Of a stretch of DNA of 64,000 nt, positions 54,582-57,292 are shown piece by piece. Under the pieces are notes generated by a model, which saw only the letters and a program-made list of their open reading frames with translations, did not search any database and was not told the DNA's origin. Location of the stretch: the NCBI GenBank assembly GCA_965209055.1, contig OZ242374.1:1664001-1728000 (forward strand), given 5' to 3'. The position numbers and the translations under genes are program-made. Positions within the stretch are counted from its first letter, which is position 1. Each line of letters opens with the position of its first letter. The DNA is from Acidobacteriota bacterium (GTDB lineage Bacteria > Acidobacteriota > UBA6911 > RPQK01 > JAJDTT01).

Positions 54582-54674
54582 GGCAGGGTGGACGAAGATT
54601 GGATTAAGTCGCCCGACTGAAAATCGGGTAGGGTTGAAAGGCCCTCGCGGGTTCAACACCCGTCCCTGCCACCA
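54582..54674 (+). tRNA. atypical class II tRNA, anticodon GAA (Phe), Ser-type long variable arm
   Basis: GGCAGGG/CCCTGCC-A-CCA; CCCGA-CTGAAAA-TCGGG; V-arm AGGGTT-GAAA-GGCCCT; GCGGG-TTCAACA-CCCGT; TAGAAT at 54565. Confidence 0.85.
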
Positions 54675-54704: not shown

Positions 54705-54968
54705 TCACAGGGGCCAGGTTGGGAACGGTGGAGGAGTCAGCCAGACACACTCATCATTGAAGATTCTCAATGTCCAGCCGTTTTCCTTCTCGCGGAACTT
54801 GGCATGAGCTCTCAACGCTCCTCGGTTGAGGGATTTCACTTTCCATAGCACCGCAGTCTCTTTCGAGAGTCTGGCCAGGTCGGCCCAGGTGATTGGGCCG
54901 TGGACTGACATGAGGTGATCGAGGAATCGAACGTGGTGTTTGAATTCGTGGGGTGCTTTGTGGGACAT
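54705..54968 (-). CDS. 87-aa hypothetical protein downstream of RNA switch copy 1
   Basis: GTAGGAG SD upstream of ATG (MSHKAPH...). Confidence 0.55.
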   Translation of the reverse strand: MSHKAPHEFKHHVRFLDHLMSVHGPITWADLARLSKETAVLWKVKSLNRGALRAHAKFREKENGWTLRIFNDECVWLTPPPFPTWPL

Positions 54969-54976
54969 CGACGGGT

Positions 54977-55209
54977 CTCCTACGCTGTCCAGGTGGAATC
55001 CACCGTGGACTGTTGTCTGCAATCAGCACCCCAGTGCAGATAGGGAGCCGGGTCATCGCAGACAACGCATAGGAAGTCGGAAGTGCTCTTCCAGTCCCTG
55101 CCTATTCGCCCCGTCCGATTCATGACGTCGCACGGTTTATAATGCCTTTTGTATTTGGCAGGTGACCCGGCACAGGATGCGCCACGGGAAACCTACGGCT
55201 GTCTGCAAT
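54977..55209 (-). ncRNA. unrecognised structured RNA motif, copy 1
   Basis: GCCGGGUCA/UGACCCGGC pseudoknot helix, terminal GCAGACA(G/A)C repeats, GUCAUGA loop, anti-SD. Confidence 0.7.
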
Positions 55210-55313
55210 GCCGATCATAACAGACAGGACTGGAACGCTCAACTGCCGCTACTCTCGGGAACGGCTCCTCCCTACGCGGGGCAGAGCCCGCCATGATCGT
55301 GAGTCCAACAACC

Positions 55314-55553
55314 ACCTCCTACGTTGCCCGAAAAATTAGCAATCAAAACCAAAATGGCGATGCCTCCGAGCGGGTTGTCTACGCCGACGATCCCACGTCT
55401 GCACATTGTGGGAGCCGGGTCATTGCAGACAACACGTAGGAAGTGAAGTTGCTACTTATTTACTCAGCAAGGTCATGACTCCTTGCGATTACGAGCTATT
55501 GCATTCAGTAGCTGACCCGGCACACTTGCGGGAGAACCCTTAGCGTTGTCTAC
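55314..55553 (-). ncRNA. unrecognised structured RNA motif, copy 2
   Basis: same architecture as copy 1 with sequence-divergent but still paired stems. Confidence 0.7.
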
Positions 55554-55666
55554 GGGTGGATCTTACTGGAAGGAGGGCTGGATTGCAAACCCGCCCCACC
55601 CACAAAATTTTTCGAGCACTCGAAATACTTCTGAGGTTTGCAGTACAATACAGGTTACAACGAAGA

Positions 55667-55753
55667 TGGCAGGCGCCCCAGGCAGGATTCGAACCTGCAA
55701 CCTTCGGCTGCGATACCGTTGCTCATCCATCTGAGCTTCTGGGGCGCTTCGCC
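55667..55753 (-). ncRNA. tRNA-Arg-like RNA with degenerate anticodon arm and extended acceptor
   Basis: GCGCCCCAG/CTGGGGCGC, GCTC-AGATGGAT-GAGC, GCAGG-TTCGAAT-CCTGC, loop ATCGCA; TATAAT at 55754-55759. Confidence 0.75.
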
Positions 55754-55864
55754 ATTATAACCTACTCGGAGGGCAGAAAATGCGTCGTGGGAAGAACCGC
55801 AAGCCAGTTGACATTTTAGCCTTGGCAATGCAGAAAGCGCATCAGCAGGTCAGAGACGGGGACC

Positions 55865-56836
55865 TCAATTCTGAGACTCGTCCGACTCATCATCAGCAGT
55901 CAGATCAAGATACATCAGACGACGGCCGACCAGTCCCGCCACGATGTGCTTCATCTGATCAATAGTATCCAGCTCTCGGATATTGTGACGCTTGGCGAAC
56001 TCACTGACGTATCGGTGTAGGTGCTTTTCACTCATCTTGTGGAAAGTGCCCGTGTAGCCGCGTTTTAACATCGACCAAAAGGACTCCATGCCATTCGTGT
56101 GTGCCATGCCTCTGACATACTCGCCTACTGTGTGCTTGACAGATTCCCGTCTATGGCCCATCCAATCGTAGGCTGGATTCTCGTCTGTGTATGATCTCAC
56201 CCACAAGACAGAGTTTTCCAGGATGAACGTGGAAAGTGTTGCCTTGGTTGTATCGGGAACAACCCTAGCCCTGATCTGATTGGTCGGACGATCTTTCATT
56301 CCCACAACTGCGACTTTGCCAACAGACCCTCGACCAGAGAATTGAGCCCGGCGCTTGGCACTCATATTCCGCCTCTTGCCTCCAATGTAAGTCTCGTCAA
56401 TCTCCACCGGCCCGGACAGAGTCTCTGAGTCGTCCTCGGTCCAGGATTGCCGAAGTCGATGAAGCATGAACCACGCTGTGGCTTGTGTCACATCGATGTC
56501 TCGGTGGAGTTTCATTGAGGAGACTCCCTTGAGGTTCGTAATGTAGATGAAGATCGCCAAGGCCCATTTCTGTAACGGGACGTGGGATCTGGCCAAGGTC
56601 GTGCCAGTGCGGACTGAAAAGTAGCGCCGACAGTCAGAACACCAGTAAGGTTGAGGCCGTCGTTTCGGAGTCTCGTTCGTCTTGACGCTGCCGCAATGCC
56701 CACAGCATCGCTCATCGGGCCAGAGTACGGACTCGAACCATTTTTCCGCGGATTCCTCATCCGGGAACATCTTGAAAAGTTGGATCAGTGAGATTCCTTG
56801 TCGGTAAAACTTGCCTGGAGCTTTTGCTTTCTTCAT
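55865..56836 (-). CDS. IS1595 family DDE transposase
   Basis: Zn ribbon CGHC..CSDC, GVSSMKLHRD, VEIDETYIGG, YTDE, HTNGMESFWSMLKRG. Confidence 0.96.
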   Translation of the reverse strand: MKKAKAPGKFYRQGISLIQLFKMFPDEESAEKWFESVLWPDERCCGHCGSVKTNETPKRRPQPYWCSDCRRYFSVRTGTTLARSHVPLQKWALAIFIYITNLKGVSSMKLHRDIDVTQATAWFMLHRLRQSWTEDDSETLSGPVEIDETYIGGKRRNMSAKRRAQFSGRGSVGKVAVVGMKDRPTNQIRARVVPDTTKATLSTFILENSVLWVRSYTDENPAYDWMGHRRESVKHTVGEYVRGMAHTNGMESFWSMLKRGYTGTFHKMSEKHLHRYVSEFAKRHNIRELDTIDQMKHIVAGLVGRRLMYLDLTADDESDESQN

Positions 56837-56950: not shown

Positions 56951-57092
56951 ATGATGGCGGAGGGATGGACACAGCGGGGTACGATCCCGCGACCTCCCAG
57001 TTCTAAGTGCCCGTGGTAGGAAAAATTTTGGGCACCAGAGCCGGGTGTTCTGCCAGCATAAAGAACTATGCGGCCTTCGTCTCCGCCATCAT
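56951..57092 (-). ncRNA. tRNA-like RNA with hairpin inserted in anticodon loop and extended acceptor helix
   Basis: GGCCGCA/TGTGTCC, GTTC..GAAC, CCCGG/CTGGG, AGGTC, GCGGG-ATCGTAC-CCCGC; flanking ATGATGGCGGAG/CTCCGCCATCAT; TAGAAT at 57091-57096. Confidence 0.65.
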
Positions 57093-57127: not shown

Positions 57128-57292
57128 GGCGCAAAGATTCCTGGCTTTCGGCTCTCCCAAGTGGCTTTCTTGTGGCAAGGGCCTGGGCTGGGGTTACATG
57201 CCCTGGAAGATCGCATCAAACTGGGCGCAAAGATTCCTGGCCCGGGCCTGGGGGAACCTGAAGCTGGGCCTAGGCTGGGGTTACGCGCCCTG
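57128..57292 (+). repeat. two tandem copies of a hairpin motif
   Basis: GGCGCAAAGATTCCTGGC...GGGCCT(G/A)GGCTGGGGTTAC..GCCCTG at 57128-57205 and 57223-57292. Confidence 0.7.

What the first reader, a model, noticed from the sequence alone, without database searches (positions are those of the whole stretch)
54977..55553. Tandem unrecognised ~200-nt pseudoknotted RNA switch that can sequester a downstream Shine-Dalgarno
Seen on the minus strand (G-U wobbles favour this strand), in two copies. Order: 5' strand A (G(C/U)AGACA(A/G)C), invariant GCCGGGUCA, a hairpin domain whose stems differ between copies but still pair (CCUGCC/GGCAGG vs GCUACU/AGUAGC), ACUUCCUA, A' (GUUGUCUGC), UGACCCGGC, a UCCC hairpin, a second A, a hairpin, then SD. 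The central strand can pair with the 5' A or with the 3' A plus the SD. Copy 1: UUCCUAUGC with GCGUAGGAG (54977-54985, 9 bp). Copy 2: ACUUCCUACGU with ACGUAGGAGGU (55314-55324, 11 bp). Inference: a two-state translational riboswitch-like leader, a type I toxin-style leader, or an RNA that self-processes between its terminal direct repeats.
Basis: partly seen in the sequence, partly recalled or inferred. Interest (0 to 1): 0.9.

Follow-up and report, generated by a model that had tools for sequence, protein, structure and literature searches.

The report
Tandem sRNA-Xcc1-like switch leader RNAs
The two repeats are real copies of a widespread structured RNA that starts messenger RNAs of mobile accessory genes, looks built to hide or expose the ribosome binding site, and is a distant, previously unlinked relative of the little-understood bacterial small RNA sRNA-Xcc1.

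Summary
No Rfam family matches them.

A covariance model built from the copies found relatives: 96 matches, 78 distinct, in related genomes and metagenome contigs, and in named alphaproteobacterial plasmids.

Comparative support:
- The 5' arm and central strand differ between members yet stay complementary: -29.6 kcal/mol against -15.1 for mismatched partners.
- The GYCGGG/CCCGRC helix and the P3 and P4 hairpins covary.
- A -10 box ends 7-8 nt before the 5' arm in 32 of 70 members, so each element probably starts a transcript.
- A 3' arm carrying the Shine-Dalgarno also pairs with the central strand in a subset: 17 of 75, and 12 of 31 ribosome sites.

It is not wholly unrecognised. Members give full-length, sub-threshold hits to Rfam RF02221, sRNA-Xcc1 (22.6-42.7 bits, cut-off 53), and the match is reciprocal.

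Downstream genes are diverse accessory genes. IS1595-like transposase genes lie within 5 kb of 8 of 13 loci.

Most likely it is a cis-acting two-state translational switch. Its trigger is unknown and expression is untested.

The parts
55560..55588 (-). Copy 2 promoter-like site: -35 TTGCAA (55583-55588), 17-nt spacer, -10 TAAGAT (55560-55565). Six nt separate it from the 5' arm.
   Evidence: Read by eye. It scores 8 of 12, below the threshold. The position fits the family-wide spacing seen.
55538..55553 (-). Copy 2 5' arm (P1 5' strand): GUAGACAAC plus the SD-like GCUAAGG.
   Evidence: duplex with the central strand, -22.7 kcal/mol.
55513..55521 (-). Copy 2 P2 5' strand (B), GCCGGGUCA.
   Evidence: The pair covaries across the family.
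55451..55512 (-). Copy 2 P3/P4 domain: P3 GCUACU/AGUAGC, internal loop GAAUGCAAUA.../...GUAAAUA, P4 GCAAGG/CCUUGC with loop AGUCAUGA.
55425..55444 (-). Copy 2 central strand: anti-SD ACUUCCUACGU followed by A' GUUGUCUGC.
55414..55422 (-). Copy 2 P2 3' strand (B'), UGACCCGGC, followed by UCCC (55410-55413).
55314..55382 (-). Copy 2 3' arm: second A GUAGACAAC (55374-55382), an inserted hairpin region, and the SD strand ACGUAGGAGGU (55314-55324). No convincing ORF follows.
   Evidence: duplex with the central strand, -26.7 kcal/mol.
55214..55242 (-). Copy 1 promoter-like site: TTGAGC, 17 nt, TG, TATGAT.
55192..55208 (-). Copy 1 5' arm (P1 5' strand): UUGCAGACAGC plus the SD-like CGUAGG.
   Evidence: -25.5 kcal/mol with the central strand.
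55163..55171 (-). Copy 1 P2 5' strand (B), GCCGGGUCA.
   Evidence: A co-occurring strain has C-to-U at 55164, which keeps a U-G pair.
55097..55162 (-). Copy 1 P3/P4 domain: P3 CCUGCC/GGCAGG, loop AAAUACAAAA.../...GCGAAUA, P4 CCGUGCGA/UCGGACGG with loop CGUCAUGAA.
55058..55077 (-). Copy 1 central strand: anti-SD ACUUCCUAUGC followed by A' GUUGUCUGC.
55047..55055 (-). Copy 1 P2 3' strand (B'), UGACCCGGC, followed by UCCC (55043-55046).
54977..55020 (-). Copy 1 3' arm: second A GCAGACAAC (55012-55020), hairpin (54987-55010), and the SD strand GCGUAGGAG (54977-54985).
   Evidence: -29.8 kcal/mol with the central strand.
54705..54968 (-). The controlled gene: an 87-aa ORF. Its ATG lies 8 nt after GGAG. 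The predicted fold is winged-helix-like.
   Evidence: Model pLDDT is 88.8. Fold matches to wHTH regulators are only weak (E > 0.1).
55865..56836 (-). IS1595-like transposase gene upstream on the same strand. A linked transposase of this kind recurs at other loci of the family.
   Evidence: (PF12762, 2e-35).

Best explanation
Each copy is a promoter plus a structured 5' leader. Both belong to an RNA family remotely related to sRNA-Xcc1.

The leader runs in this order:
- a 5' arm at the transcript start
- a C-rich linker
- P2 5' strand (GYCGGG...)
- a P3/P4 hairpin domain with the conserved loops GAAUAMAACA and GAAUA
- a central strand (an anti-SD CCU... part followed by a variable part)
- P2 3' strand (...CCCGRC) and a CC tail
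- in many members, a 3' arm that repeats the 5' arm and contains the Shine-Dalgarno

Proposed working, which is inferred and not shown: the central strand pairs either with the 5' arm or with the 3' arm. Pairing with the 5' arm forms P1, leaves the SD free and allows translation. Pairing with the 3' arm hides the SD and stops translation.

The conserved P2-P3-P4 core decides between the two states. A full 15-22-bp P1 and P2 are joined by only 0-2 nt and by short linkers. Forming P2 should therefore open the far end of P1 and free the anti-SD.

The trigger is unknown. It could be a ligand, a protein, RNA processing or refolding over time.

Copy 1 controls the 87-aa gene. Copy 2 is a second unit that has no evident gene of its own.
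For: Family and structure:
- R1 and R2 found 96 matches at E <= 1e-3, 78 of them distinct.
- P2 is 98.1% paired and P3 97.8%, with changes on both sides. 0 of 500 shuffles reach the observed values. Slid controls give 23-51%.
- P1: the own 5' arm against the central strand averages -29.6 kcal/mol, against -15.1 (sd 4.4) for other members' partners. 73 of 75 are at or below -15, against 49% of controls.
- The proximal 8 bp of P1 are 96.7% canonical, against 45.5% when partners are shuffled, and show at least four pair types per position.

Transcript start:
- A TANNNT box ends 7-8 nt before the first P1 base in 32 of 70 members, and 6-9 nt before it in 41 of 70. Many also have TTGACA upstream.
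- Copy 1 has a promoter-like site at 55242..55214.

SD masking:
- Central strand against the own 3' tail is at or below -25 kcal/mol in 17 of 75 members, against 4.4% of controls.
- Central strand against the own ribosome site averages -13.9, against -11.25 for other members' strands and -11.0 for shuffled strands. Mann-Whitney p = 2e-4. 12 of 31 are at or below -16, against 11% of controls.
- In both window copies the 3'-arm pairing beats the 5'-arm pairing: -29.8 against -25.5, and -26.7 against -22.7. It is also the minimum-energy fold.

Other support:
- The same three-part layout, with other sequences, occurs in G089 elements that score 46.7 and 29.2 bits against RF02221.
- Strain variants in copy 1 keep pairing: C-G to U-G in P2, U-A to U-G in P4, and one extra anti-SD:SD pair.
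Against: - No expression data. No RNA run holds the stretch.
- SD complementarity is clear only in a subset (17 of 75; 12 of 31). The overall shift is small (-20.8 against -18.4).
- P1 is very stable, so switching needs a trigger that I cannot name.
- The downstream genes share no theme that points to a ligand.
- Copy 2 has an SD but no credible ORF.
- The published relative sRNA-Xcc1 is described as an 88-nt trans-acting sRNA (passages of PMC2996969; title of Chen 2011, text not seen).
- The claim that P1 and P2 exclude each other is my own geometric reasoning, not a model or an experiment.
- The alignment used for pair counts was fitted to the model.
Confidence: 0.6

Rival explanations
1. 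The element is a stand-alone trans-acting small RNA, as published for sRNA-Xcc1. The core would be released and would act on other mRNAs by base pairing. The neighbouring gene would be incidental.
For: - The link to RF02221.
- sRNA-Xcc1 is an 88-nt species on Northern blots (PMC2996969 passages).
- Seven homologues are transcribed in Xylella, five of them in tandem (PMC12189769 passages).
- Copy 2 has no gene of its own.
- One G089 element has a local hairpin in place of arms, and a U8 tract after P2.
Against: - Only 3 of 75 members have a U tract after P2.
- The arms covary with the central strand within each element.
- The promoter is placed at the 5' arm, not at P2.
- A gene with an SD follows closely in most members.
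Confidence: 0.15
2. The leader works like that of a type I toxin gene (hok- or symE-like). The primary transcript would be translationally silent and would be activated or silenced by 5' processing or by an antisense RNA, with no ligand involved.
For: - In Xanthomonas integron cassettes sRNA-Xcc1 lies upstream of symE (passages of bioRxiv 10.1101/2025.06.18.660453).
- The thermodynamic ground state of both window copies hides the SD.
- Several downstream products are small membrane proteins, with TM2 in 3 of 59.
Against: - The window's product is an 87-aa winged-helix-like protein and is not hydrophobic.
- Most downstream products are 100-500-aa secreted proteins or lipoprotein-like proteins.
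- No antisense promoter or partner RNA was sought or seen.
Confidence: 0.12
3. The element belongs to an IS1595-type mobile element. It could be an RNA or DNA site used in transposition, or a fixed outward-reading module of the insertion sequence.
For: - An IS1595-like transposase gene lies within 5 kb of 8 of 13 element loci in five genomes. Four of those genomes hold 3-17 copies and the fifth, G011, holds 108. My own arithmetic expects about 0.4.
- It is present in 13 of 71 sources overall.
- L082 and L113 are homologous across transposase plus element.
Against: - 5 of 13 loci have none nearby.
- Distance (55 nt to 4 kb) and orientation vary.
- The window's similarity to G005 (L034) spans 55798-56824, the transposase gene plus about 67 nt beyond its stop, and stops short of the element.
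- No terminal inverted repeats enclose transposase and element.
- Arm sequences co-vary with each gene's own SD.
- Several of the linked loci are orthologous and so are not independent.
Confidence: 0.08
4. The element is a self-cleaving or self-processing RNA that cuts between its direct repeats.
For: The two helices cross and the unpaired nucleotides are highly conserved. Tandem occurrence is typical of some ribozymes (recalled).
Against: No ribozyme family matches, even at E <= 10. The order of helices differs from HDV-like ribozymes: nothing lies between P1' and P2'. SD complementarity argues for translational control.
Confidence: 0.05

Closest known systems
sRNA-Xcc1 (Rfam RF02221), an integron-cassette small RNA of Xanthomonas and Xylella
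   Same: - A 9-bp outer helix (GNCSGGG.../...CCCSGNC) closes a P3 stem.
- There is an AAUACAA-type internal loop, a small P4 hairpin and a GAAUA return strand.
- A C-rich tail follows (alignment printed).
- 17 of 26 elements, in 14 of the 20 loci tested, give full-length sub-threshold hits.
- The match is reciprocal.
- Both occur in tandem arrays and in mobile contexts (PMC12189769 and bioRxiv 2025 passages).
   Different: - Scores are 22.6-42.7 bits, against a cut-off of 53. The window copies do not hit at all.
- P4 is much longer in the window copies.
- The Rfam model starts at P2 and draws the central strand as a local hairpin. Here the central strand pairs with a 5' arm that starts the transcript, and often with a 3' arm that holds the SD.
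- The published reading is a trans-acting sRNA, not a cis-acting leader.
Translational riboswitch expression platforms (SD, anti-SD, anti-anti-SD)
   Same: It is a 5' leader with a conserved, covarying core and conserved unpaired nucleotides. Mutually exclusive helices include the SD. Some members occur as co-transcribed tandems with only 53-68 nt between cores.
   Different: No ligand is known and the gene association gives no hint. The switching helix is 15-22 bp long, far longer than a usual P1 (recalled). Distribution is patchy: 7 of 15 genomes of the family have it.
Type I toxin mRNA leaders such as hok (fold-back inhibition; recalled)
   Same: Long-range alternative pairings involve the 5' end and keep the SD hidden. 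The elements sit in mobile contexts. The relative sRNA-Xcc1 sits upstream of symE.
   Different: Downstream proteins here are mostly not small toxins. The conserved P2-P3-P4 core has no counterpart in those leaders. No antisense RNA is known.
HDV-like ribozymes (nested double pseudoknot; recalled)
   Same: The helix order P1, P2, hairpin, P1', P2' gives crossing helices.
   Different: There is no P1.1 or P4 between P1' and P2'. No Rfam ribozyme hit was found. P1 is 15-22 bp long and carries an anti-SD.

Membership tests
Rfam RF02221 sRNA-Xcc1 | Score at or above the curated gathering score (53 bits) with the Rfam covariance model | tested here: not met
   - Window copies: no hit at gathering or at E <= 10.
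- Relatives score 22.6, 28.9 and 25.8-42.7 bits.
- G089 elements score 47.3, 46.7 and 29.2 bits.
Rfam RF02221 sRNA-Xcc1 | Outer 9-bp G/C-rich helix enclosing P3, an AAUACAA loop, a P4 hairpin and a GAAUA strand, then a C-rich tail | tested here: met
   Both window copies have GCCGGGUCA/UGACCCGGC, P3, AAAUACAAAA or GAAUGCAAUA, P4, GCGAAUA or GUAAAUA, and UCCC. The correspondence to the Rfam consensus is shown for L107.
Rfam RF02221 sRNA-Xcc1 | Stand-alone RNA of about 88-100 nt that starts at the outer helix and ends just after it | tested here: inconclusive
   - No RNA data.
- The promoter-like box is placed before the 5' arm, not before P2.
- A U tract follows P2 in only 3 of 75 members, and in neither window copy.
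Rfam RF02221 sRNA-Xcc1 | Location in an integron gene cassette | not tested
   No search for attC sites or IntI was made. None of the 15 window ORFs between 44697 and 63434 that were scanned against Pfam matched an integrase family.
Riboswitch | Conserved structured aptamer in a 5' leader with an expression platform | tested here: met
Riboswitch | Direct binding of a small ligand, with gene association that fits it | not testable with these tools
   Downstream genes are heterogeneous. The commonest Pfam families (TM2, HIRAN, Peptidase_M10) are each matched by 3 of 59 picked ORFs.
HDV-like and other self-cleaving ribozymes | Match to a ribozyme family model, or its helix order | tested here: not met
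   No ribozyme family at E <= 10. The helix order lacks P1.1 and P4 between P1' and P2'.
Transposon-encoded guide RNAs (bridge RNA, omega RNA) | Constant adjacency to the element's own recombinase or nuclease gene | tested here: not met
   A transposase lies within 5 kb at 8 of 13 loci, at variable distance and orientation.

The most novel reading that the evidence does not exclude
The conserved P2-P3-P4 core of the whole sRNA-Xcc1 superfamily would be a sensor (an aptamer for a small molecule or second messenger) that travels with horizontally transferred cargo genes on cassettes, plasmids, prophages and IS-linked islands. It would switch their translation through competition between the 5' and 3' arms. 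The published 'trans-acting sRNA' would then be the terminated or processed sensor part of a cis-acting switch.
Probability: 0.25. Interest if true: 0.8.

Novelty: new variant of a known kind. Interest (0 to 1): 0.6.

Why it matters
sRNA-Xcc1 has been treated as a trans-acting virulence-linked small RNA of plant pathogens, and its structure and mechanism are poorly understood.

The evidence here links a much larger and more diverse set of elements to that RNA. The set comprises about 100 instances in related genomes, metagenome contigs, alphaproteobacterial plasmids and one viral contig.

In this set the core is flanked by covarying 5' and 3' arms that include the ribosome binding site. This gives a concrete cis-regulatory model that can be tested with a few reporter mutants.

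It also points to a regulatory module that moves together with accessory genes. If a ligand or partner exists, this would be a new sensor class for mobile cargo genes.

Tried and rejected
Searches that found no relatives:
- Exact scans with the A'-B' block. Ten genome contigs stretches and one viral stretch were all chance matches in coding DNA, and none carried the other motifs.
- The first metagenome pattern, B..B', found nothing.
- BLAST of the 611-nt region found nothing in the 40 related genomes searched besides the window's own.
- blastn against plasmids with L085 and with a G089 element found nothing.

Tracing the RNA through its gene:
- The 87-aa protein has only 2 close homologues among the 3 candidates scored.
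- Its paralogue and weak homologues in G000, G001 and G028 carry no element. The weak homologue in G005 does have one directly upstream.

Ideas tested and dropped:
- A third, IS-disrupted copy in the window. R2 without filters gives 9.2 bits, E = 0.44.
- Pairing of the CC tail with the end of the 5' arm. No consistent covariation.
- Palindromic P4 loops as kissing sites. 12 of 72 members, against 17.5% after shuffling, so not enriched.
- Terminal inverted repeats around the transposase and the elements. None found.

Expression and other dead ends:
- No RNA holder is listed. All laid runs were contigs, so they say nothing on transcripts.
- A Pfam check for a phylum marker rang nowhere, including the controls, so it is uninformative.

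Literature:
- Searches for a described motif of this kind turned up nothing beyond sRNA-Xcc1.
- One search failed on term syntax.
- Chen et al. 2011 is not held.
- Supplementary files were not consulted. Target lists and sequence tables there may bear on what is known about sRNA-Xcc1.
Full report
**The observation**

On the minus strand two copies run head to tail, 55553-55314 and 55206-54977. A pairwise alignment shows invariant blocks separated by variable stretches. The blocks are UGUGCCGGGUCA, UCAUG, ACUUCCUA, GUUGUCUGC, AUGACCCGGCUCCC, AGACAAC and CGUAGGAG.

- The stem next to GCCGGGUCA differs at three pairs, and all three changes are compensatory (CCUGCC/GGCAGG against GCUACU/AGUAGC).
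- An inner stem also differs but still pairs (CCGUGCGA/UCGGACGG against GCAAGG/CCUUGC).
- The A'-B' block occurs twice in the window, against 0.01 expected, and nowhere else in the 6.08-Mb genome.
- The minimum-energy folds pair the central strand with the downstream A and the SD in both copies. Their z-scores are -4.25 and -3.15.
- The SD of copy 1 lies 8 nt before the ATG of an 87-aa ORF, 54705-54968.
- Rfam gives only tRNA hits in the region at gathering score, and nothing relevant at E <= 10.

**Finding relatives**

Exact-word scans gave only chance matches, and BLAST in 40 relatives found nothing.

A covariance model of the core, B to B' (R1), found confident matches in five genomes of the same family, including a third copy in the window's own genome.

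A second model built from those 11 sequences (R2) hit more widely:
- 7 of 15 genomes of the family.
- Three further genomes, from two other families, in a 151-genome sample of the phylum.

A degenerate pattern from the conserved core found 104 metagenome stretches, of which 80 were returned. Over 95 sources R2 found 96 matches at E <= 1e-3, 78 of them distinct. One lies on a predicted viral contig. Three lie on named plasmids of Phenylobacterium zucineum, Komagataeibacter oboediens and Sphingomonas parapaucimobilis.

**Consensus anatomy**

In 5' to 3' order:
- a 5' arm of about 15-22 nt that usually ends ...CAGG
- a linker, often NCCCGCUNU
- P2 GYCGGGYNN
- P3 CCUGCY
- the loop GAAUAMAACA
- P4, a variable hairpin that ranges from a tetraloop stem to about 60 nt
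- GAAUA
- P3' RGCAGG
- a short linker
- the central strand, YCCUGYGYG followed by a variable part
- 0-2 nt
- P2' NNGCCCGRC
- a tail RCC

On the model-fitted alignment 95.4% of cells pair, against 83.6% in shuffles (0 of 500 reach it) and 23-51% when partners are slid. P2 is 98.1% paired and P3 97.8%, with many changes on both sides. The fit of the alignment to the model leans towards the structure. However, P2 is anchored by invariant CGGG/CCCG, so its register is not in doubt.

**The 5' arm**

The arm cannot be aligned by sequence, so I tested it by energy.
- The best duplex between each member's upstream 60 nt and its own central strand averages -29.6 kcal/mol.
- The same re-optimised search with other members' central strands averages -15.1 (sd 4.4).
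- 73 of 75 members are at or below -15, against 49% of 750 controls.
- The first eight pairs are 96.7% canonical, against 45.5% with shuffled partners, and each position has four or more pair types. That observed value is favoured by how the positions were chosen.

It covaries strongly and includes an SD-like stretch opposite the anti-SD.

**Transcript start**

A TANNNT hexamer ends 7 or 8 nt before the first paired base of P1 in 32 of 70 members, and 6-9 nt before it in 41 of 70. It often has TTGACA about 17 nt upstream.

Copy 1 has TTGAGC-17-TG-TATGAT at 55242..55214. Copy 2 has TTGCAA-17-TAAGAT, read by eye. I infer that P1 begins at or next to +1, so that each window copy is its own transcription unit.

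In six metagenome loci two short elements lie only 53-68 nt apart. That gap is filled by the second element's arm and linker. Those pairs are therefore co-transcribed true tandems.

**The 3' arm and the SD**

Across the family the central strand pairs with its own 3' tail only slightly better than with others' tails (-20.8 against -18.4). The tail of the distribution is heavier: 17 of 75 are at or below -25, against 4.4% of controls.

I then took the 31 members with a confidently placed start codon.
- The central strand pairs with its own ribosome site at -13.9 on average.
- Other members' strands give -11.25 and shuffled strands -11.0.
- Mann-Whitney p = 2e-4.
- 12 of 31 are at or below -16, against 11% of controls.

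In many of these the paired segment ends a few bases before the ATG. In the window copies the 3'-arm pairing is stronger than the 5'-arm pairing (-29.8 against -25.5, and -26.7 against -22.7).

SD masking by the central strand is thus a recurrent feature of the family, though not a universal one. It is fully present in both window copies.

**Do P1 and P2 coexist?**

Both helices are supported, and they cross. But P1' and P2' are joined by 0-2 nt, the linker from P3' to P1' is about 6-8 nt, and the linker from P1 to P2 is about 7-10 nt.

By simple geometry these linkers cannot span a straight 15-22-bp P1 that starts at the P2/P3 junction. I therefore think a full P1 and P2 exclude each other, and that forming P2 peels open the far half of P1, which is the anti-SD part.

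In the window copies the hairpin inserted in the 3' arm would give the hinge needed for P2 plus the central:3'-arm pairing. This paragraph is inference only.

**Link to a known family**

Searched in short stretches, members give a full-length match (model positions 1-87) to Rfam RF02221, sRNA-Xcc1, exactly over the element.
- L035 scores 22.6 bits and L107 scores 28.9 bits.
- 17 of the 26 elements in 20 loci score 25.8-42.7 bits. These lie in 14 of the 20 loci. The gathering score is 53.
- The printed alignment equates the Rfam outer helix with P2, and matches P3, the AAUACAA loop, a CCC-GAAA-GGG hairpin, GAAUA and the C-rich tail.
- In the other direction, RF02221 finds three elements within 1.7 kb in one genome of the phylum sample, G089, at 47.3, 46.7 and 29.2 bits.
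- R2 finds the same three places at 22.7, 15.9 and 8.6 bits, the last at E = 0.38.
- Two of those elements have both a 5' arm and a 3' arm with AGGAGG and a start codon, each complementary to the central strand (-28.3 and -30.9; -22.7 and -32.8). The third has a local hairpin and a U8 tract instead.

The superfamily therefore holds a leader type and a short terminated type. The window copies themselves get no RF02221 hit, so they are not members by Rfam's own criterion.

**What is in print**

This rests on passages only, not whole texts.
- sRNA-Xcc1 is an 88-nt RNA seen at about 100 nt on Northern blots in X. campestris (PMC2996969).
- The most widespread Xanthomonas integron cassette carries symE with sRNA-Xcc1 upstream of it, both facing away from the cassette promoter (bioRxiv 10.1101/2025.06.18.660453).
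- Xylella fastidiosa Temecula1 has seven homologues. Five are in a tandem array about 381-386 nt apart in a genomic island, and all are transcribed (PMC12189769).

The window's period is 367 nt. The key paper, Chen et al. [quoted passage not shown]

My searches found no description of 5' and 3' arms or of a cis-acting switch.

**Context**

Downstream genes are heterogeneous.
- Among 59 picked ORFs the commonest Pfam families (TM2, HIRAN, Peptidase_M10) each occur in 3. Single cases include GST, HNH and FkbM methyltransferase.
- By a rough heuristic, 46 of 75 products have a hydrophobic N-terminus and 20 of 75 have a lipobox-like motif.
- The window's product has a confident winged-helix-like model (pLDDT 88.8), with only weak fold matches.

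An IS1595-like transposase gene lies near the element in 13 of 71 sources. In five genomes I compared coordinates. There, 8 of 13 element loci have one within 5 kb, although four of the genomes hold only 3, 4, 7 and 17 copies (the fifth holds 108). Random placement would give about 0.4 by my arithmetic.

Some of these loci are orthologous, so roughly five independent cases remain. Distance and orientation vary, and the window's similarity to G005 stops short of the element. I read this as co-location in mobile, IS-linked cargo regions rather than as a role in transposition.

**Population variation**

Contigs of a co-occurring strain differ from the window at five places in copy 1 and at one place next to the SD.
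- The change in P2 turns C-G into U-G.
- The change in P4 turns U-A into U-G.
- The change next to the SD adds a C-G pair to the anti-SD:SD helix.

This is weak evidence, but it agrees with an RNA read on the minus strand.

**Verdict**

The structure is real and strongly supported by covariation. It is a divergent, leader-type branch of the sRNA-Xcc1 superfamily, not a wholly new kind.

Its trigger is unknown, and none of it has been tested experimentally.

Noticed in passing
window 55674-55745 (-): A tRNA-like gene lies directly upstream of copy 2. Rfam scores it 48 bits, but ARAGORN does not call it, and the anticodon loop looks one base short by eye. It may be a decayed or unusual tRNA.
   Followed up: partly
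window 54587-54674 (+): tRNA-Phe (GAA) with a long variable arm (88 nt), which is unusual for tRNA-Phe. It converges on the 3' end of the 87-aa gene.
   Followed up: no
window 56966-57075 (-): A borderline Rfam tRNA hit of 110 nt (29.3 bits, cut-off 29) just upstream of the transposase gene.
   Followed up: no
window 57128-57292: Short direct repeats of 15-27 nt at 65-96 nt spacing, between the transposase region and the LRR protein gene.
   Followed up: no
L034 2474-2952 (G005): Four tandem tRNA genes, three of them at a 100-nt period. They sit between an IS1595-like transposase gene and the element that precedes the homologue of the 87-aa gene. This is the same order as in the window.
   Followed up: partly
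L015 1023-1761 (G000:C1, near 5262934): A 49%-identical paralogue of the 87-aa protein has no leader element. Instead it directly follows a Cys-rich (zinc-ribbon-like) ORF of about 154 aa, so the two may form a two-gene module.
   Followed up: no
window 54785-55194 and 55636-55810: The runs that hold the window contain a second strain. It has 15 differences across the 87-aa gene and SD region and 5 in copy 1. One contig replaces the tRNA-like stretch with 218 other letters.
   Followed up: partly
G011 (whole genome): 108 matches to the IS1595 transposase domain. Most are one near-identical type with a 313-aa open frame, which points to a recent burst.
   Followed up: no
P4 loops across alignment A4: Two recurrent apical loop types cap otherwise unrelated P4 stems: GGUAGCUCC-like, and GUCAUGA as in both window copies. 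Minimal members have plain tetraloops instead. I found no explanation.
   Followed up: partly
L107 2647-2728 (-), and L107 1320-1392 / L108 3899-3971 (-): Sub-threshold Rfam hits near elements on metagenome contigs: Fluoride riboswitch at 21.5 bits (cut-off 34) and suhB/mmgR at 25 bits (cut-off 41).
   Followed up: no
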